From a virus, in the IMG/VR virus record IMGVR_UViG_3300050821_018577, positions 96,001 to 160,000 of that record: a stretch of DNA of 64,000 bases, one strand, 5' to 3'. The notes under the pieces were generated by a model. The model was given only the letters and a program-made list of their open reading frames with translations. It was not told the origin of the DNA and ran no database searches. This document shows positions 3-46,836 of the stretch, piece after piece; position 1 is the stretch's first letter, and each line of letters begins with the position of its first letter. The position numbers and the translations under genes were made by a program.

Positions 3-452
3 ACCCCATTCGGCGGGCCGTGTTTCCCGCGGGACAACCGGATGTTTCAGTACGTCGCGGAAAAAGTGAGTGTTAAAGCCCATCTGGCGTTGGCCACGGA
101 CAAAATCAACGAAGATATCCTCTGGCATATCATCTCTTCCCTTCCGAAGAACGAGGAGGTCGGAATTCTGGGAGCCAGTTATAAAGCAGGCACAAATGTC
201 ATTGAAGAATCGGCAGGGATGGCGCTATGTAAAAAACTAACAGCGCTCGGCCGCATCGTAAAACAGCATGACCCTCTCGTTGCCACGCCCGACAAGCTCG
301 AGAACGTAATTCAGTGTCCGGTTGTCATTGTCACTCTCGATTGCCCGGAATACCGCGGGCTACAATTCCAACCAAGCCAATTTGTAGTTGACCCATGGCG
401 CATCACCGGAAAACAAGTAGCGAAGGAGATTCCATGCCCAGTCTCATGTTGA
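3..452 (+). CDS. ugd: UDP-glucose/GDP-mannose dehydrogenase family, C-terminal part (5' truncated by window edge)
   Basis: Frame is open to the window edge and reads TPFGGPCFPRDN (catalytic GGxCFPxD motif), followed by the UDP-binding domain VGILGASYKAGT..EES..HDP. Confidence 0.85.
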   Translation, partial: TPFGGPCFPRDNRMFQYVAEKVSVKAHLALATDKINEDILWHIISSLPKNEEVGILGASYKAGTNVIEESAGMALCKKLTALGRIVKQHDPLVATPDKLENVIQCPVVIVTLDCPEYRGLQFQPSQFVVDPWRITGKQVAKEIPCPVSC

Positions 453-32874: not shown

Positions 32875-33243
32875 GTGCGACCAGCATCCGAAAGACGGAG
32901 AGCTCGCCATCCCACCAAGATGTTGAAGAATATGCAGCGTCTCGGAATCGATGGCGACCGCAGAAGTGATGTAGTGGACCCAATGCCGCTGATGGTCCGT
33001 TACTTGGATGGCAAGCCCGCCTTGACGAATGACGAACGTGAAATCTTACTGTTTGCACTTTACATGGAGAGCATTAAGAAAAAAAACGGACTGGCTTCCA
33101 AAGCTCTAAAGCAATTAAAAAAAGGGACATCGTGGCTGAGAATATCGAAGAACTCCGGCAAGAAGTTGCAGAGAGCCAGAAGTTTGACGTGGACGCTTTT
33201 CAATTCCCACCGAACGTCCCGCTCGCGCTACAGGAAGAACTGA
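32875..33243 (+). CDS. hypothetical protein
   Basis: ORF directly after the GG protein; overlaps the next gene. Confidence 0.35.
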   Translation: MRPASERRRARHPTKMLKNMQRLGIDGDRRSDVVDPMPLMVRYLDGKPALTNDEREILLFALYMESIKKKNGLASKALKQLKKGTSWLRISKNSGKKLQRARSLTWTLFNSHRTSRSRYRKN

Positions 33244-37967: not shown

Positions 37968-38433
37968 ACAGCGGCAAATCGAGATAAGAAACATAGCTGC
38001 CCTCATCATCAACGCTGGAACAGTCTCGGTCAACGAAGCGCGCGAACTGCTGGACCTCTCTGAACGGCCGGCTTTATTCGGTCAGCCGAACTGGAATAAT
38101 TATTCCAGTTCTGTTTCGATACCGAATGTTACGACAGGCGATTGGATGGTCGACCCTCCAGGCATGACCGTTATCCCTAGTGCTGGGCCAGTGACCACCG
38201 TTCCTGCGTTGCCCAATGGCTTTACGGTTTGGCCTGTCAATCCTCCAGCGACTCTTCCACCACCGCGGCCGCCGGTCTGGAATGAGCAAATAGATTTCGA
38301 GAGAATGCAAGCCTTGCTGGCTGGCATCAATCAATCTCCCGCAAAGCCAAAAAGAAAAAGAGCTCCAAGGCGCAAGGTGGCGATAGAGGTTGTTCCACTC
38401 GATGCCAAGCGCAGGATCCGGCTCGAGGACTGA
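37945..38433 (+). CDS. hypothetical protein
   Basis: ORF with RBS; Pro-rich middle and basic tail. Confidence 0.45.
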   Translation: MDATATSEQRQIEIRNIAALIINAGTVSVNEARELLDLSERPALFGQPNWNNYSSSVSIPNVTTGDWMVDPPGMTVIPSAGPVTTVPALPNGFTVWPVNPPATLPPPRPPVWNEQIDFERMQALLAGINQSPAKPKRKRAPRRKVAIEVVPLDAKRRIRLED

Positions 38434-38472
38434 CCCTTTCCCACAGCGAAACTTAGCCTCTAAAAATAAGTC

Positions 38473-38502
38473 TTGACAAGCGATTCCGTAACCGTTTACG
38501 CT
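38473..38502 (+). promoter_or_regulatory. sigma70-type promoter of the ncRNA array
   Basis: TTGACA (38473-38478), 18 nt spacer, TACGCT (38497-38502); 8 nt upstream of unit 1. Confidence 0.65.
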
Positions 38503-38510
38503 GATTTTGC

Positions 38511-38631
38511 TCCTGGTACTGTGTTGCTTACATGTTAGCTCAATGGTAGAGCAACTGCCTTCAAAGCAGTCGGTTGCCGGTTCAAATCCGGTACACGATT
38601 CCCCGTAAGGGGAGCAGCGCGACATCCAGGA
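38511..38631 (+). ncRNA. Y-RNA-like unit 1 (tRNA-like insert, UCA anticodon)
   Basis: Stem TCCTGG/CCAGGA; TACTG..TACATG; D, anticodon and T arms; CGACAT. Confidence 0.7.
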
Positions 38632-38714
38632 ACACTTTTCGGTGCGTTTCGTTTGTTGCGACCAATTCGACCGGATTGTCTCATACGCCGGACTACAAAT
38701 TATGAGACAGCTTT

Positions 38715-38858
38715 TGACCGTTACTGCAAGCGGATACATGCGTGGCGCAAGCCACATCAAGGTTCGACTCCTTGGTCCCGCTCCATCTATGCGGGACTGG
38801 CCGAATGGTAGAGGCACATGCTCCCGAAAGGGAACATTCCGCAGGCGACATACGGTCA
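38715..38858 (+). ncRNA. Y-RNA-like unit 2 (permuted class II tRNA mimic)
   Basis: Stem TGACCG/CGGTCA; variable arm, T arm, GTCCCGC-TCCA, linker, GCGGGAC, D arm. Confidence 0.75.
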
Positions 38859-38865
38859 TTGATTT

Positions 38866-38979
38866 TGGCTGTTACTGAACTGAGGCTACATGACTGTGGG
38901 CGAATAGCCCACCCCCCTCCACCAACGATGGGGGGGCCGTGCAAGCGGGACTATTGAAACCTCAATCGACATACAGCCA
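38866..38979 (+). ncRNA. Y-RNA-like unit 3
   Basis: Stem TGGCTG/CAGCCA; core motifs present; multi-hairpin insert. Confidence 0.7.
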
Positions 38980-38988
38980 TTCTTTCTT

Positions 38989-39129
38989 GGACGGTTACTG
39001 AACGAAGCCTACATGACATCCCGGGGCGGATAGCCTCGGCCCCCGCCAACTATCGGGGGCCTCGGAAAGCCGGCGCTAAACACGCCGGTCGGATGAGGAT
39101 CTATTGCAAGCTTGGTCGACATACCGTCC
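38989..39129 (+). ncRNA. Y-RNA-like unit 4
   Basis: Stem GGACGG/CCGTCC; core motifs present; insert related to unit 3. Confidence 0.7.
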
Positions 39130-39137
39130 TCGGTTGT

Positions 39138-39283
39138 GGCGGTTACTGTTTCGGGCTACATGTCAATACAACGTTGAAGTCGTGAGTTCGAATCTCACAT
39201 TCGCCGCCAAGAAGTTTTGGCGAATTAGCTCAGTTGGTAGAGCGCAACGCAAGACAGCAGTACATCCCGAACGACATACCGCC
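39138..39283 (+). ncRNA. Y-RNA-like unit 5 (permuted tRNA mimic)
   Basis: Stem GGCGG/CCGCC; T arm, ATTCGCC-GCCA, linker, GGCGAAT, D arm; CAACG/CGTTG stem. Confidence 0.75.
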
Positions 39284-39291
39284 CTTAGAGA

Positions 39292-39430
39292 TTGGCGCTT
39301 ACTGTGTTCGCTTACATGTCCATTGGAGACCGAGGTCGTTGGTTCGAATCCAACCGCCACCTTCGGGTGGCGTAGCTCAGCGGTAGAGCGCGTAGGCCGA
39401 AAGGCCACTAGCGGATCGACATAGCGCCAA
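39292..39430 (+). ncRNA. Y-RNA-like unit 6 (permuted tRNA mimic, acceptor closed by UUCG)
   Basis: Stem TTGGCGCT/AGCGCCAA; T arm, CGCCACC-TTCG-GGTGGCG, D arm. Confidence 0.75.
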
Positions 39431-39436
39431 CTAATC

Positions 39437-39509
39437 TTGGCCTTTACTGTGTTGGGCTTACATGACTGTTAATCATTCCCGAAAGGGAGCCCAGCCGATA
39501 TAAGGCCGA
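39437..39509 (+). ncRNA. Y-RNA-like unit 7 (minimal)
   Basis: Stem TTGGCCTT/AAGGCCGA; TACTG..TACATG; CGATAT variant of the 3' motif. Confidence 0.6.
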
Positions 39510-39552: not shown

Positions 39553-39587
39553 GGCGCCGGGCCCAGTTAGGCCCGGCGTCTTGTTTC
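39553..39587 (+). terminator. rho-independent terminator after the array
   Basis: 11-bp GC-rich stem GGCGCCGGGCC/GGCCCGGCGTC followed by TTGTTTC. Confidence 0.6.
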
Positions 39588-39602
39588 AAAGGGAGAAAAA
39601 CG

Positions 39603-39929: not shown

Positions 39930-40004
39930 GGCGTCATCGTCTAGTGGCTAGGACGTTGGCTTCTCATGCCGAAAACGCGGGTTCGACTCCCGTTGGCGCC
40001 TCCA
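39930..40004 (+). tRNA. tRNA-Glu(CTC)
   Basis: Cloverleaf, loop TTCTCAT, CCA. Confidence 0.85.
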
Positions 40005-40016
40005 AAGGTAAAGCAA

Positions 40017-40598
40017 ATGCCGAAGTCTGACGACAGATTTTATCTGATGGAGATGTCGAATCGCCCTGCGATGTGGGGCGACATCGGCTCGCTTTTGAAG
40101 CTCGAAGGCGTAGTCATCGGCGGTGGCGGCGCGCGAGAGATTTTGCTTTTACCGTGCAGCGAGCCAATGAAGGCAGAGACGTTGGACTATTCCGTTCACG
40201 AATTGTCCATCGAGGAGTGGTCAGATTGGTTGCAGCGCAGCGACAATCCAGAAGTTCTTGTCGGCCCAAGTTTGACCGGTCCGCAAGGCGCAACGCTGCC
40301 GAAGATTTGGCATCGCAAACTGCGTTACGAGATTTCCGGCGCGGTCCAGCAAAAGGTTTGGGCTGCGGACCATTTCCGATGCTGCTATTGCGGAGTGGAG
40401 ATGGGAAAAGCCTTGATGACCATCGACCATTTTGTTCCATTGGAACAAGGCGGCAAAAACGATGTGACAAATTATCTGTCGAGTTGCAAGCCGTGCAACA
40501 AAGCAAAAGGTTCACTGGCTCCAGATGTTTTTCTGGCGGGTCGGCCGAATCTGTTCGAGACATTGAAAAACTATTTGGCGAATCGAAAAATTTCCTAG
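40017..40598 (+). CDS. HNH endonuclease domain protein
   Basis: CCYCG..TIDHFVP..GG.N..N..SCKPCNKAKG. Confidence 0.85.
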   Translation: MPKSDDRFYLMEMSNRPAMWGDIGSLLKLEGVVIGGGGAREILLLPCSEPMKAETLDYSVHELSIEEWSDWLQRSDNPEVLVGPSLTGPQGATLPKIWHRKLRYEISGAVQQKVWAADHFRCCYCGVEMGKALMTIDHFVPLEQGGKNDVTNYLSSCKPCNKAKGSLAPDVFLAGRPNLFETLKNYLANRKIS

Positions 40599-41172: not shown

Positions 41173-42414
41173 ATGAAAGCATTCCATTGGGCCTTTGTGG
41201 TTTTGCTGTTTGCGATGCCGGTGCGAGCGCAGGACTGCGGCAGCATTGTCGTGGACCAGGCTGGTGTGTTCAAGCCGACAGAATTTGCAGCAGTCGTCGA
41301 TGCCAGTAACAATCTCATTGACAATGGCGCGGATGTCCGCGTGCGGACAGTTGGCCCCACGTCGAATCTCGATATCGACGAGAAAAATTTAGAGCGCGTT
41401 TGCCAATCGTGGCAGTCTCCGAACGGAGGCCGAAAGAGCACGCTCATTGTGCTGATGGTGTCGCCGCAAAGCCACAAGGCTGGCATCTATATCGGTGAAT
41501 CGTGGAAGCCGGCGCTGGCTGCTCATTGGAATCGAATCAAGACCGACTACATGAACCCGCATTTCAAGACTGGTGACTTTGCGGGCGGCTTCATTGCGAC
41601 GGAACAGCAACTTGCGGCTAGGATCACGGCCTCACGAGATGAAGCGATTCATCCGGCGGTCACGACCACTACGACCGTGAATCAAGCGGAGGACCTGTCT
41701 GGACTCTGGAGGGTATTCGGGTGGCTCATTGTTCTCGGCGCTATCGGTGTTGCTATTTGGATGGCCGTTAGCTTTTTGAAGCAGAGACGCAAAAGCGACC
41801 AGGAACTAAGAGAAGCACAACGTCGTGCGATTGACACCAAGGCCCGGGCAGCGGAGTTGCTTAAAACAAAGGCCAGCGACTATCCGAAGCTGGATGAAGC
41901 GTCCCAGGAATTTGCGCGACTGAATACTTCTATCCGTAATGACCCGTACGCGGATGATTTAGCGGTCGAGGAGTATAACGTCATCGCATCGCAGTACCAG
42001 AACGTGGTGGACATGCTGAGTGGACAATCAGAAAAACCGTATGTTCCACCGCCTGGCATGGGAGCTGATTTTGTACGGCAGAAGGCTACCAAGACTACCA
42101 AGAAGCATCGGCCAGCCTCCAGCGATACAGCGGCTTCACAAACCGCAGCGCCCTCAACGGCTGGCGGCTTCCCGGTACCCATTATTATAGAAGAGCCGAC
42201 AATCATCGAAGAACCGCGAAGGCGTGAACCGGACCCGGAGCCACAGCCAGAACGAAGCTCGCGGCGCAGTTCAGATGACGACGGCGGAAGCGGCGGCGGG
42301 TCGAGCAGTTGGGCCGATACATCCAGTTCGAGCGATTCCGGCTCCAGTGACAGCGGTGGCTCATCGGATTTCGGCAGCAGTGATAGCGGCGGTGGAGGCT
42401 CTTCGGATTATTGA
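41173..42414 (+). CDS. TPM-domain membrane protein with G/S-rich tail
   Basis: Signal peptide, VVDQAGVF.., TM helix, low-complexity SSDSGGG C-terminus. Confidence 0.75.
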   Translation: MKAFHWAFVVLLFAMPVRAQDCGSIVVDQAGVFKPTEFAAVVDASNNLIDNGADVRVRTVGPTSNLDIDEKNLERVCQSWQSPNGGRKSTLIVLMVSPQSHKAGIYIGESWKPALAAHWNRIKTDYMNPHFKTGDFAGGFIATEQQLAARITASRDEAIHPAVTTTTTVNQAEDLSGLWRVFGWLIVLGAIGVAIWMAVSFLKQRRKSDQELREAQRRAIDTKARAAELLKTKASDYPKLDEASQEFARLNTSIRNDPYADDLAVEEYNVIASQYQNVVDMLSGQSEKPYVPPPGMGADFVRQKATKTTKKHRPASSDTAASQTAAPSTAGGFPVPIIIEEPTIIEEPRRREPDPEPQPERSSRRSSDDDGGSGGGSSSWADTSSSSDSGSSDSGGSSDFGSSDSGGGGSSDY

Positions 42415-42422
42415 GGCAGTAA

Positions 42423-42854
42423 ATGGAACGCAGAATTCAACTACAGAATGCCGACAAGAGAACGGTGAGCACGGATGCCCTAGAAACCTTGGGGACCATC
42501 ATCGACGAAACTGCCGGACGCGACGCCATTCATTTGGCGGTTGAGCCCGTTGTGGCCGCGCATATGCTGCGGCCCGGCGACGATGTTGGTTTCGTTGAGG
42601 GTGGAGTTGGCTACTGCGAAAATCCCGTAGGCATCGTTGACCCATTTCTAAAAGAGCGATGGGTTCAGAAAGGCCAGAGATTCTGGCTGGTAGTGTATCC
42701 GCGTCAGATTACGTCGCTGCGCCATGTCTGGACGCATCCAGCGTTTGAGGAACACAAGAACGCACCTACGCAGTCAAAAGCAGAATCAGAAGCATGGCTG
42801 CGGCATAACAGGTCGTGGCATCGATTGACCGGCTCGCCTTTCCCAAAAGCCTAG
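42423..42854 (+). CDS. conserved phage protein, N-terminal part (apparently split)
   Basis: RDAIHLAVEPV..GIVDPFL..FWL..YP..ITSLRHVWTHPAF; ends at TAG. Confidence 0.6.
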   Translation: MERRIQLQNADKRTVSTDALETLGTIIDETAGRDAIHLAVEPVVAAHMLRPGDDVGFVEGGVGYCENPVGIVDPFLKERWVQKGQRFWLVVYPRQITSLRHVWTHPAFEEHKNAPTQSKAESEAWLRHNRSWHRLTGSPFPKA

Positions 42855-42929
42855 GACGTGGGCTGGCGTGCGCCAATGCGACCACTCTTTCAGAGCTAGG
42901 ACGATGCAGTTTCAGTTTCATGCACCAAG

Positions 42930-43244
42930 ATGCAGGATGCCAAACCGCAGTTCACTTTCAATTTCGAGAAAGGAGACACGCATGAGGCGACCACCAGGTC
43001 CACGAGTCGGGCGGCCGTCCGACCTGCCGCCAGCGTTCGTACTCGGCCTTCGCCACAAACACGGCACAAAAATGCGGTATCTTATGGCGCTCCTGAGTGG
43101 AGCCTTGAAGAAGGCTATCTGAACTTTGTAGGCAGAGACGCCCATGGCGAAATTCCGCCTGAATTTTGGGACCATGTAGAAGTTGTAACTGAAAAAAAGA
43201 TTCCAACGAACAAACGGGCCAGTTATTTTTCATGTGGTTGCTAA
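42930..43244 (+). pseudogene. in-frame C-terminal remainder of the 42423 protein family
   Basis: Same frame; DAHGEIPPEFWDHVEVVT..YFSCGC resembles the recalled C-terminus of this family. Confidence 0.4.
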
Positions 43245-43261
43245 AAAAAGGAGAATCGAAA

Positions 43262-43939
43262 ATGTCTTTCTTGGCAAAACTTAGAGTAGTCACTCTGGCA
43301 AACGTCCACGATTTGTTGGACAAGGCCATTGACTTAAACTCGCCCTCGGTCATCCGGCAGTACACCCGGGACCTTGAAGATGCCCTGGACCGCATGAAAA
43401 ACGAAGCGGCGGTCCAGGCCGGCACAGTGCGCACGTTGCAGCGCGAGAAAATAGAACTCGACGGGCGGATCAAGACCACCGAAGTCACCATCCAGCATCT
43501 TGTGGAAGGTGGCCATTCCGACCTGGCGCGACCGAAAGCGGCCGACCTTGTGCGTATGCGCGCCCACTTTGCGGAAGCGGACGGCAATATCGCCACGGCT
43601 CAGAAGTCCTCGCATGATATCGACGTGGCGGTCGCCAACCTCGAGGCCAAACATGCTGAGATGGTGGACCATGTGCGCCAGCTCGAAAGTCTCGACCGGG
43701 ACACCAAGGCCAAAGAGGATTCCAAGCGAGCTCTGGCCGCAGCTGGCCGGCTCGTTCAAGGCGGAGCGGACGTCTCGGTCGACGATGTGGAGTCCAGAAT
43801 GAAGCGCAGGAACGATATTGCCACCGAAGGATTCAATCGCGCCCTCGGCGATGCTGCTGTGCAGGAGAATCCGGAAACCAGCGCGGCGGTCGATGATGTG
43901 TTGGCAGAATTCACCAAGAAGAAGGATGCCTTCGCATGA
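43262..43939 (+). CDS. pspA: PspA/IM30 (ESCRT-III-like) protein
   Basis: [21 protein letters not shown]; long coiled coil; AGGAG RBS. Confidence 0.8.
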
Positions 43940-44193
43940 AAAAAATCGCCAAGGAATTGAACATCGACAAACGCGTCAAGGAAATCATCGTCGAGCACCT
44001 CGGCGTTGGCGTTAACGAAGTTACCGACAATGCATCCCTCGTGGACGACCTTGGCGCCGATTCTCTCGACCAAGTAGAACTCGTGATGGCGATCGAGGAG
44101 GAATATGACATCGCCATACCCGATGAGGAAGCAGAGGAAATCAAAACCGTTCAACAGGCGGTGTCCTGTGTGAGCAAGAAAGTTGGCAAATAG
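43936..44193 (+). CDS. acpP: acyl carrier protein
   Basis: [45 protein letters not shown]. Confidence 0.9.
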
Positions 44194-44195
44194 TC

Positions 44196-45809
44196 ATGAA
44201 GAACGAAAGTGGGCTAAGTAAGAATCAAATTATTGCTGAGCTAACGAAGAGTCCGCACGGCGCGTTGCACGAATACATTCCGACCGCCAAAGCGGCCGCG
44301 GAACAGCATGGCGAATTTTTCGCACACCTGATTTCCTGGAACCGCGTCAAGGGCCAGGTTGACGACGCAAAACTGGCGTTGCCGGCTGTGTCCTTGTTCG
44401 CATCCGGATATCCCGAGGAGTTTGTAGAAAACTCGCTGGCCCATCTGACCATGCTCAATCCGCGCGACATGCTCAAGGTCCTGCGTTTTGTTCTCGACCT
44501 TCGCGCTGGCAAGGCAGCGGTTATCGAGAAAACGACAACGGTTCGCGGCGGCAAAAAACAGCTACAGAAGAAATTGACCTACGTGGCTGTGCCGGCCATG
44601 CGTCTGCGCAGTTTGACGCGATTCTCGGACGTGCTTGCCATTTCCTTGCTCGAACGCGAGAAGAACTGGCCGCGCTGGGAACGCACTATGCTCCAGCACC
44701 GCAGAGTGCTCCAGGAGTTGTTTGGCATCCTGCACGTCAAGCCGAATAACCAGAAAACCAAGGCATGCTTGTACCGTTCGGACAAAGTCGACGGCAAGCG
44801 GATCGATTTGCCGTATCCCCAGGGCGGTCTGTTTGAGGCCGTCAGCCATCTCAAAGACATGAGCGCCGCAGAAGCGGCCGGAACCATTATGACACGCAAG
44901 ATTCCGTTCCTGGTTGCGCTCGGAGCACTCGGCCCGAAGTCCAAGGAACCGGATCTCGTGTTGGCGCTCATCAAATCGATGACGGCAACCGAGCTCGTCA
45001 CCAACACCAAGATGCTCGAGGATTTGGGCATCAAGACCAATCCGGCATTGCGCGGCGCTTTCCAGGAAGCTCTCGAAAAGGCCGGCAAGAGCAAAGCGAA
45101 TTTGCTCAAGACCACAACGGCCGCAGAAGCCATGGACGATGAAGATTTGAAAGCGCGTCTACAAGGTCTGCAAGAGAAGCAGATTCAGGCGCACGGCGGA
45201 ATCGATGGCAATTGGCTTGTGCTCGGCGACAAATCGCCAAGCATGGCTCACTCCGTTGAATTCGCCAAAGAAGTTGCCGGCACACTGACCAAGATGGTGA
45301 AAGGTCGCGTATGGCTGGTGTTCTTCGACAGCCTTCCAATGACTGTCGATGTCACCGGCCTGACCTTGGACCAAATCAAGAAGGCCACGAAGCACATCGG
45401 AGCCGGAGGTTCAGGCACATCGATCGGAGCCGGCTTGCAGCGTATGCTTGATGAAAAAGCGGAAGTCGACGGCATTGCAGTTGTGAGCGACGGTGGGGAA
45501 AACGGCACTCCGTACTTCGCTCAAACGTATCAAAAATATTGCAAGCTATTCGACAAGGAGCCAACGGTGTATTTTTATCAGTGCTCCGGCGACCACGATG
45601 TGTTCAGCAATTCGATGAAGTCTGCCAATTTGGACATGCAGACTTTCGACCTGCGCAATGCGTCACCGGCTGACCGCTACAGCTTGCCGAATTTGGTCAG
45701 CACTATGCGTTGCAATCGGTACAGCATGGCCGACGAAATTATGGCCACAAAACTTTTGCAGTTGTCCGATGCTTACAAGCACGGCACTGTGAAAACAGCC
45801 AGCGCATAA
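44196..45809 (+). CDS. TROVE/Ro60-like protein with C-terminal vWA domain
   Basis: Helical N-region; MIDAS-like DKSPS, GTSIG, VSDGGEN; size and architecture match Ro60/Rsr. Confidence 0.65.
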   Translation: MKNESGLSKNQIIAELTKSPHGALHEYIPTAKAAAEQHGEFFAHLISWNRVKGQVDDAKLALPAVSLFASGYPEEFVENSLAHLTMLNPRDMLKVLRFVLDLRAGKAAVIEKTTTVRGGKKQLQKKLTYVAVPAMRLRSLTRFSDVLAISLLEREKNWPRWERTMLQHRRVLQELFGILHVKPNNQKTKACLYRSDKVDGKRIDLPYPQGGLFEAVSHLKDMSAAEAAGTIMTRKIPFLVALGALGPKSKEPDLVLALIKSMTATELVTNTKMLEDLGIKTNPALRGAFQEALEKAGKSKANLLKTTTAAEAMDDEDLKARLQGLQEKQIQAHGGIDGNWLVLGDKSPSMAHSVEFAKEVAGTLTKMVKGRVWLVFFDSLPMTVDVTGLTLDQIKKATKHIGAGGSGTSIGAGLQRMLDEKAEVDGIAVVSDGGENGTPYFAQTYQKYCKLFDKEPTVYFYQCSGDHDVFSNSMKSANLDMQTFDLRNASPADRYSLPNLVSTMRCNRYSMADEIMATKLLQLSDAYKHGTVKTASA

Positions 45810-45850
45810 AAGCTGGCATGGAACTAAATCTAAGAAAGGAGAATAAGAGC

Positions 45851-46156
45851 ATGCTCAGTGTATTGAAGTCTTTTACCTCGAATGCACGGTTTGAAACGGA
45901 AGAGCTTGTTGAGCTCTCCGCCTTCGGCCGGCTGCTTGAGGCAGAATTCAAACAGCTGGGCGTTGAAACTCCCGAATGGCTTGGCAATCAATTGAAAGCC
46001 GTCACTCGGGAAATCAAGACGCGAAACGCTGATGCCATTGCGAACAAAATTCGCTCGGCAAAGGCTCGTCTTGCAGCGCTCGCAACACCCGATGAGCGTC
46101 GTGCCGCACTCAACGACGAAATCAAGAAACTCGAAGAACAATTCGCTCAGGCGTAA
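45851..46156 (+). CDS. small coiled-coil protein
   Basis: AAGGAG RBS; directly after the TROVE-like gene. Confidence 0.55.
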   Translation: MLSVLKSFTSNARFETEELVELSAFGRLLEAEFKQLGVETPEWLGNQLKAVTREIKTRNADAIANKIRSAKARLAALATPDERRAALNDEIKKLEEQFAQA

Positions 46157-46287
46157 GCACCGCCTGACGTGTCCATGTCCCTGTGGTCGCAAGTTTTGGC
46201 CACGCCTCCACAGGGACGGGACACCCATGCAAACGTATTTTTCCGACTCCTGCAAAAATCGAATGGCCCAGGCCAGGTTTCGCAAGA

Positions 46288-46836
46288 ATGGCAAAAAGCG
46301 ACAAGGTCTTAATCATAGGTCCCATGCTCTCCCCAGGCATCATCCTCATTAGCCCCAAATATCCGCATAATGTGGCGGCCACTATCCGTGCGTGTTCCTG
46401 CTTCGGTATTCCCTCCTTGTTCTGGACCGGCTCCCGCGTGAACCCTAGCCAATATGACCGGCTTCCGCGCGAAGAACGCATGAAGGGCTATCGGGATGTG
46501 ACGTGGATCCACAGCGACAGGCCATTCGACCATTTTAAGAATATCTGGCCAGTCTGCGTTGAGATTCACGAAGGATCGGTCGCACTTCCTGATTTCGTTC
46601 ATCCCAAAAATGCAGTGTACGTTTTCGGTCCGGAGGATGGCGGCGTTCCCCAGGTGATGCGGCGCCTCTGTTTTTCCTTTGTGCACATTCCATCATTCCA
46701 TTGTCTGAACTTGGCTGCCGCAGTCAATGTAGTGCTCTACGACCGGGCGATGAAGGAACATCCGGCGGCGAGCATGAACGTCGCTAAGCACGAGGTCCGC
46801 GGAGAGATTCCAATGCCCGGATGGGATGGAAAGTGA
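46288..46836 (+). CDS. SpoU/TrmH-family RNA 2'-O-methyltransferase
   Basis: PHNVAATIRACSCFG, VFGPEDGG, CLNLAAAVNVVLYD. Confidence 0.85.
   Translation: MAKSDKVLIIGPMLSPGIILISPKYPHNVAATIRACSCFGIPSLFWTGSRVNPSQYDRLPREERMKGYRDVTWIHSDRPFDHFKNIWPVCVEIHEGSVALPDFVHPKNAVYVFGPEDGGVPQVMRRLCFSFVHIPSFHCLNLAAAVNVVLYDRAMKEHPAASMNVAKHEVRGEIPMPGWDGK

What the first reader, a model, noticed from the sequence alone, without database searches (positions are those of the whole stretch)
38511..39509. Tandem array of seven modular ncRNAs with a shared core and swappable cargo (candidate new Y-RNA class)
Seen: between a TTGACA-18-TACGCT promoter and a GC terminator lie seven units with the layout [stem a]-(T)TACTG-N5-9-TACATG-[cargo]-CGACAT(A)-[stem a']. 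Each unit has a different closing stem that is complementary within the unit: TCCTGG/CCAGGA, TGACCG/CGGTCA, TGGCTG/CAGCCA, GGACGG/CCGTCC, GGCGG/CCGCC, TTGGCGCT/AGCGCCAA, GGCCTT/AAGGCC. This is covariation within one locus. ATG(TC) can pair with (GA)CAT, leaving the conserved TACTG..TAC element as a bulge. Established: bacterial Y RNAs (YrlA class) join a Ro60/Rsr-binding stem to a circularly permuted tRNA-like module. Inference: this is a polycistronic set of adaptor RNAs sharing one protein-binding site, each with a different effector. The core does not match the GNCGAANG Rsr-binding motif as I recall it, so it may be an undescribed class.
Basis: partly seen in the sequence, partly recalled or inferred. 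Interest (0 to 1): 0.95.

Follow-up and report, generated by a model that had tools for sequence, protein, structure and literature searches.

The report
Phage Y-RNA-like array with Ro60-like partner
A soil phage carries seven small RNAs in a row that share one conserved double-stem "handle" but carry different tRNA-like payloads; the same RNAs sit next to a hidden relative of the Ro60 RNA-binding protein in dozens of phages, so they look like a new, undescribed branch of the Ro60/Y-RNA system.

Summary
Seven units lie at 38511-39509 (+). Each has TACTG-N-TACATG ... CGA(C/T)AT closed by its own complementary stem.

The fold needs revising. The "N5-9" spacer is the 5' strand of a second covarying helix, P2. 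Each unit reads P1 - NACUG - P2 - (U)ACAYG - cargo - P2' - CGAYNN - P1'.

No Rfam family matches the handle. Only the tRNA-like cargo gives sub-threshold YrlA or tRNA hits.

The 537-aa protein at 44196 has no Pfam TROVE hit. Its AlphaFold model nevertheless matches Ro60 structures over its full length (Z 16-18).

Homologous genes in 73 viral contigs almost all have arrays of the same RNA upstream on the same strand, usually 20-250 nt away. A reciprocal RNA-pattern scan of all IMG/VR gave 22 contigs with foldable hits, and all 22 carry the gene.

The last three handle bases are uniform within a phage but differ between phages. This fits one shared phage-encoded partner.

Cargo modules are tRNA mimics: a tRNA body, permuted T-acceptor-D modules, and an Ala-type acceptor hairpin with ACCA.

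Best reading: a new Y-RNA-like class for a divergent phage Ro60. Binding is inferred, not shown.

The parts
38473..38502 (+). Promoter-like site: TTGACA, 18-nt spacer, TACGCT. It ends 8 nt before the first base of P1 of unit 1.
   Evidence: Read directly. It was not called by the consensus scan because the -10 is weak. In relatives, TTGACN-16..19-TAnnnT lies within 150 nt upstream of the first detected unit in 9 of 44 loci, against 1% of control windows. It often ends 4-9 nt before P1.
38511..38631 (+). Unit 1. P1 38511-16 / 38626-31; UACUG; P2 38522-29 / 38612-19; ACAUG; CGACAU. Cargo is a tRNA body (D arm, anticodon arm with loop CUUCAAA, T arm) with a weak acceptor (4 of 7 pairs), plus a UCCCC-GUAA-GGGGA hairpin.
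   Evidence: Rfam tRNA 56 bits, model positions 5-66 only. ARAGORN calls 'tRNA-SeC (tca)'. Fold and parse.
38632..38714 (+). 83-nt spacer between units 1 and 2. It holds an A+U-rich hairpin (UGUCUCAUA ... UAUGAGACA) followed by GCUUUU. No handle motif. Function unknown; it may be an attenuator or a processing site.
   Evidence: Read directly. The other inter-unit spacers are only 6-9 nt.
38715..38858 (+). Unit 2. P1 UGACCGU / ACGGUCA; P2 GCGGA / UCCGC. Cargo is a permuted tRNA-like module: hairpin, T arm (GGUUCGACUCC), acceptor 3' strand followed by UCCA, linker, acceptor 5' strand, D-like arm, then a GAAA hairpin.
   Evidence: sequence.
38866..38979 (+). Unit 3. P1 UGGCUGU / ACAGCCA; P2 UGAGG / CCUCA. 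The cargo includes a hairpin that copies a tRNA-Ala/tmRNA-type acceptor end: GGGGGGG pairs with CCCCUCC (giving G3.U70), followed by A-CCA in the loop.
   Evidence: The same cargo type occurs in L009, L010, L020, L024 and L039. CM R1 scores 23 bits with filters off.
38989..39129 (+). Unit 4. P1 GGACGGU / ACCGUCC; P2 AAGC / GCUU, the weakest P2 of the seven. Cargo is G+C-rich hairpins, including an 8-bp stem whose loop starts with CCA.
   Evidence: My strict parser missed this unit because 4 nt are unpaired after ACUG.
39138..39283 (+). Unit 5. P1 GGCGGU / ACCGCC; P2 UUCGGG / CCCGAA. Cargo is a YrlA-type permuted tRNA-like module: T arm, acceptor 3' strand plus GCCA, linker, acceptor 5' strand, UA, D arm.
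   Evidence: Rfam YrlA 31.2 bits, model positions 23-85, below the gathering score of 69. Also.
39292..39430 (+). Unit 6. P1 UUGGCGCU / AGCGCCAA; P2 GUUCGCU / AGCGGAU. Cargo is a YrlA-type permuted tRNA-like module with a 7-bp acceptor stem capped by UUCG, plus a GGCC-GAAA-GGCC hairpin.
   Evidence: Rfam YrlA 36.8 bits, model positions 23-86. Also.
39437..39509 (+). Unit 7, a minimal unit. P1 UUGGCCUU / AAGGCCGA; P2 GUUGGGCUU / GAGCCCAGC; 3' core CGAUAU. The 22-nt cargo is ACUGUUAAUCAU followed by a GAAA hairpin.
   Evidence: Found by CM R1, which was built without it: 33.3 bits, E 1.9e-7 in the window. The same cargo type is the last unit in L009 and also occurs in L015.
39553..39590 (+). Intrinsic terminator-like hairpin (11 pairs, 10 G-C) followed by UUGUUUC.
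39966..40598 (+). HNH-domain protein, 210 aa. Full-length orthologues (48-63% identity) lie between the array and the Ro60-like gene in about 29 of 73 related loci.
   Evidence: Pfam HNH 4e-9. Synteny.
44196..45809 (+). Ro60-like protein, 537 aa: a helical HEAT-type ring plus a vWA domain with the MIDAS motif D345-x-S347-x-S349. It is the proposed partner of the handle.
   Evidence: No Pfam TROVE hit in 0 of 38 family members. AF2 pLDDT 85.6. The top 12 Foldseek hits are all Ro60. VIA-align gives Z 14.5-17.9 over 416-443 residues to Xenopus, human, Deinococcus and Thermus-phage Ro60. Invariant MIDAS residues.
45818..46156 (+). Small helical protein of about 100-112 aa directly downstream of the Ro60-like gene. 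It is conserved at that position in 56 of 73 loci. Function unknown.
   Evidence: No Pfam or PHROG hit. The protein atlas gave nothing informative.

Best explanation
The array encodes seven Y-RNA-like non-coding RNAs. They are probably made as one precursor from the promoter at 38473 to the terminator at 39553.

Each RNA has a constant handle built from two variable, covarying helices, P1 and P2. These helices hold a small conserved internal loop: 5'-N-A-C-U-G on one strand and 5'-C-G-A-Y-N-N on the other. The U-G of the first strand and the C-G of the second can extend P2. A conserved (U)ACAYG strand sits at the top of P2.

I propose that this handle is the docking site for the phage's own Ro60-like ring protein, encoded at 44196-45809. 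The small conserved downstream protein may take part as well.

The variable cargo presents different mimics of tRNA parts: a whole tRNA body, permuted T-acceptor-D modules as in YrlA, and an alanine-type acceptor hairpin with ACCA. By analogy with Y RNAs, which tether Ro60 to PNPase and gate its cavity, each cargo would couple the Ro60-like protein to a different tRNA-binding protein, or would act as a decoy for one.

What is shown: the anatomy, the covariation, the protein fold, the two-way genomic linkage and the phage-specific uniformity of the handle. What is inferred: binding, processing into single units and the role of the cargo.
For: Structure. An unfitted MAFFT alignment of 17 minimal units shows 87% of cells paired against 58% after shuffling. 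P1 has double-sided changes in 6 of 6 pairs and P2 in 6 of 8, with 0 of 500 shuffles as high. In 74 CM hits, 88.8% of cells pair against 53% after shuffling, and 13 of 14 pairs show double changes. All 74 hits are on the gene's strand and none on the other.

Invariant core. A 74/74, C 68, U 70 and G 70 in the 5' loop strand; ACAYG 73/74; C 71, G 73 and A 74 in the 3' loop strand.

Protein. Full-length Ro60 fold.

Linkage. The motif lies upstream on the same strand in 55 of 73 loci under the strict scan, and by eye most of the remainder carry variant units. 142 of 161 units lie within 3 kb upstream of the gene, and many end 20-60 nt before its start codon.

Reciprocal test. An RNA-pattern scan of all IMG/VR returned 29 stretches. 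The 22 that sit on Ro60-like contigs include every structurally valid hit. The other 7 lack P1/P2 pairing and lack the gene.

Shared partner. 109 of 124 units carry their phage's majority 3' hexamer, against 62 expected. The hexamer changed at least 15 times on the protein tree of 34 phages.

Cargo. YrlA-type modules. ARAGORN calls tRNAs in 23 of 132 units, with unconstrained and odd anticodons (A34, stop, 2- or 4-nt), which suits mimics rather than decoders.

Expression. Exact contigs inside the array occur in three soil metatranscriptomes, with none in the 180 nt upstream of the promoter.

Precedent. Y RNAs are encoded next to Ro60 in bacteria and phages (PMC4201824). Yrl1 and Yrl2 lie upstream of the phage phiLo Ro60 and bind it (PMC12135203).
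Against: There is no experimental or computational test of binding. The related loci were fetched through the Ro60-like gene, so the HNH protein (about 40% of loci) or the small downstream protein (77%) could be the true handle binder. The canonical Ro60 contact motif GNCGAAN0-1G on the 5' strand is absent. The handle does not reach any Rfam Y RNA or YrlA score. In the window itself the array is 4.7 kb from the gene, with unrelated genes in between. The RNA evidence is contigs only, so DNA carry-over is not excluded. Uniformity of the 3' hexamer within a phage could partly reflect homogenisation inside arrays.
Confidence: 0.65

Rival explanations
1. Processing cassette. The P1-loop-P2 duplex is a leader-trailer stem, like the stems that flank rRNAs. 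A nuclease cuts it to excise tRNA-like RNAs from a polycistronic precursor. The nuclease could be host RNase III or RNase E, or the adjacent phage HNH protein. On this reading the Ro60-like gene is only a neighbour acting on tRNA metabolism.
For: Units are packed 6-9 nt apart. P1, the two extra pairs and P2 give a 16-20 bp imperfect duplex. In some relatives the first unit encloses a complete tRNA by Rfam, model positions 1-71, 49-67 bits (for example L020 8142-8214 and L039 8626-8698). An HNH protein is conserved between the array and the gene in about 29 loci.
Against: The loop bases that vary (3' positions 4-6) are uniform within a phage and switch between closely related phages. That is not expected for a conserved host RNase. 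The minimal units carry almost no cargo to excise. The handle is as conserved as the cargo is variable. This reading can also coexist with Ro60 binding rather than replace it.
Confidence: 0.15
2. Real but unusual tRNA genes. Class-1 units would be pre-tRNAs. The permuted units would be permuted tRNA genes matured through a circular intermediate, as in Cyanidioschyzon. The handle would bring the ends together for cutting and ligation, after which RNase P and 3' trimming open the acceptor loop at the encoded NCCA.
For: Several acceptor loops begin with N-CCA directly after the 3' acceptor strand (units 2, 3 and 5). Anticodon loops keep the Y-U-NNN-R-A form. M. smegmatis YrlA is cut by RNase P and receives CCA in vivo (PMC4201824).
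Against: The anticodons are erratic: A34 forms, stop anticodons, 2- and 4-nt 'anticodons'. In the window, the unit 1 acceptor pairs only 4 of 7. Permuted units have no anticodon arm in the right place, because P2 takes its position, as in YrlA. Many units have no tRNA features at all. The phage already has 27 normal tRNAs. No RNA ligase was seen in the locus.
Confidence: 0.07
3. The conserved core is an undescribed self-cleaving or self-ligating ribozyme that cuts the array into units.
For: About 14 near-invariant unpaired nucleotides sit between variable helices. This is a pattern typical of small ribozymes, and some ribozymes accompany phage tRNAs.
Against: No match to any Rfam ribozyme even at E up to 10. 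The core does not resemble the hammerhead, twister, pistol, hatchet, hairpin or HDV-like cores (my comparison from memory, not a test). The phage-specific variation of three core bases is unusual for a catalytic core.
Confidence: 0.04
4. DNA-level repeats, for example target or recombination sites for the HNH endonuclease, or chance repeats among degraded tRNA genes.
For: HNH genes often sit among phage tRNA genes. An HNH gene lies next to many of these arrays.
Against: Strict strand asymmetry: 74 CM hits against 0, and 161 parsed units against 3. Two helices show compensatory changes, with G.U outnumbering A.C by 50 to 29. A promoter and a terminator frame the array. Metatranscriptome contigs cover it.
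Confidence: 0.02

Closest known systems
YrlA-type bacterial and phage Y RNAs (Rfam RF02553; Chen et al. 2014, PMC4201824)
   Same: Encoded near a Ro60-fold gene on the same strand, sometimes several per locus. The 5' and 3' ends pair into a stem-internal loop-stem rod that carries a circularly permuted tRNA-like module (V hairpin, T arm, capped acceptor stem, D arm). Units 2, 5 and 6 have exactly that module, and units 5 and 6 give partial YrlA hits. Size is 73-146 nt.
   Different: The rod is a different sequence family, and the handle reaches no Rfam score. The hallmark GNCGAAN0-1G on the 5' strand is missing. Here an invariant CGA lies on the 3' strand, opposite an invariant ACUG on the 5' strand. 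In the YrlA consensus, CGA-AUG is on the 5' strand and ACUUG on the 3' strand. The local two-strand motif therefore looks similar, but cargo and termini are swapped. This is inferred from comparing consensus sequences and was not tested. The same handle is also joined to non-YrlA cargo: a tRNA body through its acceptor end, an Ala-type minihelix, or a bare hairpin. Arrays reach 7 units.
Ro60 / Rsr (TROVE + vWA) proteins, including Thermus phage phiLo Ro60 with Yrl1 and Yrl2 (PMC12135203; PDB 9KOP, 9L5Y)
   Same: The 44196 protein has the same two-domain ring fold over its full length (Z 16-18) and an intact MIDAS motif. As in phiLo, the candidate RNAs lie upstream of the phage gene.
   Different: Identity is 12-16%. 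No family member matches Pfam TROVE, and a family profile finds no Ro60 in the PDB by sequence. The family is almost confined to uncultured phage contigs. Among 185,579 species genomes it appears only in five MAG contigs, four of them Acidobacteriota. It is followed by a conserved small helical protein.
Metazoan and Deinococcus Y RNAs (Rfam RF00019; GGUCCGA / UUGACC bulged helix)
   Same: Terminal stem with a conserved protein-binding internal loop or bulge, and a variable distal module that recruits other proteins.
   Different: No sequence match. Cargo here is tRNA-like. The units are arranged as a tandem polycistronic array.
Two-piece (permuted) tmRNA and permuted tRNA genes
   Same: Order T arm - acceptor 3' strand - (N)CCA - linker - acceptor 5' strand - D region. 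Unit 3 copies the G3.U70/A73/CCA alanine identity set used by tmRNA.
   Different: No mRNA-like part and no tag reading frame. No Rfam tmRNA hit lies in the array. A true permuted tmRNA exists elsewhere in relative L039.

Membership tests
YrlA (RF02553) | Reaches the Rfam gathering score (69 bits) over the whole model | tested here: not met
   Best hits are 36.8 and 31.2 bits, over model positions 23-86 only, which is the tRNA-like part. No YrlA hit at gathering threshold in six related loci.
YrlA (RF02553) | GNCGAAN0-1G motif near the 5' end (proposed Rsr contact; PMC4201824) | tested here: not met
   The 5' strand is N-ACUG in 74 of 74 aligned units. CGA is invariant but sits on the 3' strand.
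YrlA (RF02553) | Permuted tRNA-like domain (T arm, capped acceptor-like stem, D arm) | tested here: met
   Units 5 and 6 through the partial YrlA alignments. Unit 2 by reading. 18 or more of 132 units across the family. Other units carry other cargo.
YrlA (RF02553) | Encoded close to, and on the same strand as, a Ro60 orthologue | tested here: met
   4.7 kb away in the window. Mostly 20-250 nt upstream in relatives, and always on the same strand. Reciprocal scan.
Y RNA (functional definition) | Bound by Ro60 in vivo or in vitro | not testable with these tools
   Needs EMSA, RIP or a structure of the complex.
Y RNA (functional definition) | Stem formed by the 5' and 3' ends that carries a conserved protein-binding site, plus a variable distal module; about 80-130 nt | tested here: met
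   P1 and P2 covary and enclose a conserved loop. Units are 73-146 nt.
Ro60 / TROVE protein family | Pfam TROVE (PF05731) sequence match | tested here: not met
   0 of 38 family members at E up to 1. Only weak VWA_CoxE and VWA_2 hits, and one member gives vWA_Ro60 at E 0.047. No PDB Ro60 found by sequence or by family profile.
Ro60 / TROVE protein family | HEAT-repeat ring closed by a vWA domain with a MIDAS site | tested here: met
   The AF2 model (pLDDT 85.6, pTM 0.81) aligns over residues 5-512 to ten Ro60 entries at Z 14.5-17.9. vWA-only proteins align to residues 334-510 only. D345, S347 and S349 are invariant.
Functional tRNA | Seven-pair acceptor stem and a sensible anticodon | tested here: not met
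   Window unit 1: the Rfam tRNA hit lacks acceptor positions 1-4 and 67-71, and only 4 of 7 pairs form. Anticodons across the family are erratic. Some relatives' first units do score as complete tRNAs.

The most novel reading that the evidence does not exclude
These RNAs are a circularly 'flipped' Y-RNA class. The Ro60 contact motif (helix-CGA-loop opposite loop-ACUG-helix) is kept, but cargo and termini have changed sides. A phage Ro60-like ring would therefore hold a library of up to seven tRNA mimics: a tRNA body, permuted tRNAs with encoded CCA, and an alanine-identity minihelix. The phage would use this library either to capture host tRNA-binding proteins or as Ro-tethered decoys for tRNA-targeting defence enzymes. 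Candidate targets include AlaRS, RNase P, the CCA-adding enzyme, EF-Tu and anticodon or acceptor nucleases. That would make it the first programmable multi-adaptor Ro60 RNP.
Probability: 0.2. Interest if true: 0.88.

Novelty: new variant of a known kind. Interest (0 to 1): 0.74.

Why it matters
Ro60/Y-RNA particles are known from animals, from about 5% of bacteria and from a few phages. Their RNA partners have been hard to find outside the YrlA family.

This locus adds three things. It defines a large Ro60-fold protein family (more than 800 clusters) that sequence models miss. It defines a matching RNA family with a clear two-helix handle supported by covariation. It also shows natural 'cargo swapping' on a constant handle.

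That gives a direct test of the tether model, one handle with many adaptors, using seven ready-made variants. It also points to tRNA mimicry, including an alanine-type acceptor end, as the currency of this phage system. The handle model can be used to annotate hundreds of soil-phage contigs.

Tried and rejected
1. Rejected: most relatives have CGACUU or CGACUC, with no CAU, while ACAYG stays invariant. The spacer forms the covarying helix P2 instead.

2. A loose RNA pattern, ACTG-N5-10-TACATG-N15-45-CGACTT, scanned over IMG/VR. None had P1/P2 pairing at the match and none had the gene, so all were chance hits. It was replaced by a tighter pattern.

3. CM R1 finds minimal units well but misses most long-cargo units, even with filters off. 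I used a descriptor-style parser instead. That parser misses unit 4 and units with variant cores such as ACGG, ACUUG or UAAUU.

5. GenBank phages hold only one distant relative of the protein, at 27% identity in an uncultured 595-kb phage. No cultured host system was found.

6. The protein atlas gave nothing informative for the small downstream protein.

7. K-turn, sarcin-ricin and known small-ribozyme cores were compared from memory and do not fit. This was not a formal test.

8. The eighth motif copy at 33047 has no complementary flanks and lies in coding-looking sequence, so I treat it as chance.

9. RNA runs: parts of the array without contig cover (39284-39336, 39398-39600) are not evidence of absence.
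Full report
**Setting.** The window is bases 96001-160000 of a 178,858-bp IMG/VR virus record rated complete. It carries 27 ordinary tRNA genes plus one odd call inside the finding. DNA holders are soil metagenomes. The few cellular-genome relatives of the key protein lie in Acidobacteriota MAG contigs.

**Observation.** Seven units lie at 38511-38631, 38715-38858, 38866-38979, 38989-39129, 39138-39283, 39292-39430 and 39437-39509, all on the + strand.
- TACTG-N5-10-TACATG occurs 8 times in the window against 0.05 expected. Seven copies are in the array, and there are none elsewhere in the genome.
- TTGACA-18-TACGCT ends 8 nt before unit 1 (the -10 is weak).
- A strong terminator-like hairpin follows unit 7.

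**Revised anatomy.** Minimum-free-energy folds showed that the 'spacer' after TACTG pairs with the bases just 5' of CGACAT. The unit is therefore P1 - N-ACUG - P2 - (U)ACAYG - cargo - P2' - CGAYNN - P1'.
- The G and U of ACUG can pair with the C and G of CGA. That leaves a small loop, 5'-NAC over 5'-AYNN, between two helices.
- On a MAFFT alignment of 17 short units from 16 phages, not fitted to any structure, 87% of cells pair against 58% after shuffling. P1 varies on both sides in 6 of 6 pairs and P2 in 6 of 8. Sliding the partners by one to three columns drops pairing to 33-49%.
- A covariance model from these 17 units found 74 units in 65 sources. All are on the strand of the Ro60-like gene and none on the other strand. 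They include window unit 7, which was not in the seed.
- On that alignment 88.8% of cells pair, and 13 of 14 pairs show double changes.
- Near-invariant positions are A-C-U-G, a G-C and a C-G pair in upper P2, U-ACAYG, and C-G-A.
The 3' core is CGACUU or CGACUC in most phages, so I drop it.

**Not a known RNA family.** No Rfam family reaches its gathering score in the array except tRNA on the body of unit 1. At E up to 10 the only relevant hits are YrlA at 36.8 and 31.2 bits (gathering score 69). They cover model positions 23-86, the tRNA-like module of units 6 and 5, and not the Rsr-binding stem. Six related loci also give no YrlA hit.

**The protein.** The 537-aa product of 44196-45809 has only a weak vWA hit in Pfam and no sequence match in the PDB.
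- It belongs to a family of more than 800 clusters, none annotated as TROVE. 0 of 38 members match Pfam TROVE.
- An AlphaFold2 model from a 38-sequence alignment (pLDDT 85.6, pTM 0.81) has Ro60 structures as its 12 best Foldseek matches. These include the Thermus phage phiLo Ro60.
- VIA-align gives Z 14.5-17.9 over 416-443 residues spanning model residues 5-512 for ten Ro60 entries. vWA-only proteins align only to residues 334-510.
- The MIDAS residues D345, S347 and S349 are invariant.
- It is thus Ro60-like by fold, though not by detectable sequence.

**Linkage, forward.** A scan of IMG/VR with the protein alignment gave 73 loci.
- The 5' motif is found almost only on the gene's strand, clustered upstream.
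- A descriptor-style parser found 161 units on that strand against 3 on the other. Fifty-three of the 73 loci have at least one unit.
- 142 units lie within 3 kb upstream, and in many loci the last unit ends 20-60 nt before the start codon. That would put a handle in the gene's own 5' leader, so feedback control is possible; this is inference.
- Loci scored as empty mostly carry units with variant cores, such as ACGG, ACUUG or ACAUA.
- The window and its closest relative L009 differ in having 3.6-5.5 kb of other genes inserted between the array and the gene.

**Linkage, reverse.** A tight RNA-only pattern scanned over all 2.9 million IMG/VR contigs returned 29 stretches.
- Twenty-two are contigs already known to carry the gene.
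- The other seven lack P1 and P2 pairing and lack the gene, which is about the number of chance hits I estimated for this pattern.
- Every foldable hit therefore co-occurs with the Ro60-like gene.

**A shared, phage-encoded partner.** Units within one phage differ in P1, P2 and cargo, yet share the last three bases of the 3' core.
- 109 of 124 units carry their phage's majority hexamer, against 62 expected and a maximum of 75 in 2000 shuffles.
- Phages differ from each other: CGACAU here, and CGACUU, CGACUC, CGACUA, CGACAC, CGAUCU, CGAUUU and CGAAUC elsewhere.
- The hexamer changed at least 15 times on a tree of 34 Ro60-like proteins (FastTree).
- The same cargo type, for example the Ala-type hairpin or the ACUGUUAAUC minimal unit, carries different hexamers in different phages.
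- This concerted switching is what a single co-evolving binder would produce. Homogenisation within arrays is the alternative.

**Cargo.** Four recurrent classes appear.
1. A tRNA body (D, anticodon and T arms) joined through its acceptor end. It is usually the first unit. ARAGORN calls tRNAs in 23 of 132 units, with erratic anticodons including A34 forms, stop anticodons and 2- or 4-nt loops. In some relatives Rfam scores this unit as a complete tRNA.
2. Permuted modules as in YrlA, joined where the anticodon stem would be. The acceptor loop often starts with N-CCA (units 2 and 5).
3. A hairpin in which GGGGGGG pairs with CCCCUCC, giving G3.U70, followed by A-CCA. This is the alanine identity set of tRNA-Ala and tmRNA (unit 3; conserved in L009, L010, L020 and others).
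4. Minimal hairpins (unit 7).

The same handle is thus grafted onto different points of different tRNA mimics.

**Comparison with canonical Ro60 sites.** Known sites share GGUCCGA (vertebrates) or GNCGAAN0-1G (YrlA) on the 5' strand (PMC4201824). The Rfam YrlA consensus shows CGA-AUGC on the 5' strand and ACUUG on the 3' strand. Here CGA is invariant on the 3' strand and ACUG on the 5' strand.
- Read locally, both are 'helix-CGA-loop' facing 'loop-AC(U)UG-helix'.
- In YrlA that helix holds the RNA termini. Here it leads to the cargo.
- I offer this 'flipped' relation as an inference. It was not tested.

**Neighbours.** A small helical protein follows the gene in 56 of 73 loci. A full-length conserved HNH protein lies between the array and the gene in about 29 loci. 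Either could take part in, or replace, the proposed binding.

**Expression.** Three soil metatranscriptome runs from three studies hold exact contigs inside the array: 38527-38779, 38661-38815, 38725-38875, 38862-39038 and 39004-39283. Several bridge adjacent units. None covers 38300-38482, upstream of the promoter, where a DNA run has some cover. This is weak support for a polycistronic transcript. DNA carry-over cannot be excluded, and contigs do not give ends.

**Literature.** Chen et al. 2014 found YrlA RNAs next to annotated TROVE genes in 254 bacteria and 22 phages. The phiLo study showed two upstream Yrl RNAs binding a phage Ro60. A Listeria phage study suspected abundant RNAs upstream of an HHpred-detected Rsr-like gene (PMC12282133). 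None of the papers I found describes this handle, this protein family or arrays of this kind.

**Verdict.** The best reading is a new Y-RNA-like class partnered with a sequence-divergent phage Ro60 (confidence about 0.65). The main rival is a nuclease-processing cassette, which could also coexist with it.

Noticed in passing
window 33047-33066: An eighth exact copy of TACTG-N-TACATG on the + strand, in coding-looking sequence. It has no complementary flanks and no CGA partner, so it is probably chance.
   Followed up: partly
window 43936-44193: An 85-aa ORF directly upstream of the Ro60-like gene looks like an acyl carrier protein ([18 protein letters not shown] motif). Only 3 of 73 related loci have a similar ORF.
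   Followed up: partly
window 41173-43939: A TPM-domain protein, a phrog_11912 protein and a PspA/IM30-like protein lie between the array and the Ro60-like gene. Among the relatives they appear only in L009 (TPM, PspA), so they look like an insertion into an otherwise compact RNA-gene module.
   Followed up: partly
window 46183-46836: A SpoU-type RNA 2'-O-methyltransferase lies just downstream of the Ro60-like pair. It is shared with only one related locus, so it is not a core part of the module.
   Followed up: partly
L039:6063-6352: A related phage carries a circularly permuted (two-piece) tmRNA gene (Rfam tmRNA_permuted, 101 bits) about 2 kb upstream of its Y-like array.
   Followed up: no
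L020:8142-8214, L039:8626-8698, L072:12451-12523: In some relatives the first-class unit encloses a tRNA that Rfam scores as complete (positions 1-71, 57-67 bits), flanked by the handle as paired leader and trailer. Whether these are matured into working tRNAs is open.
   Followed up: partly
window 38529-38602: ARAGORN labels the unit 1 cargo tRNA-SeC (anticodon UCA). It would read UGA if functional, but its acceptor stem pairs only 4 of 7.
   Followed up: partly
L020:9884-10001 and many other loci: The last unit often ends 20-60 nt before the Ro60-like start codon, next to the ribosome-binding site. This would allow the protein to control its own translation.
   Followed up: no
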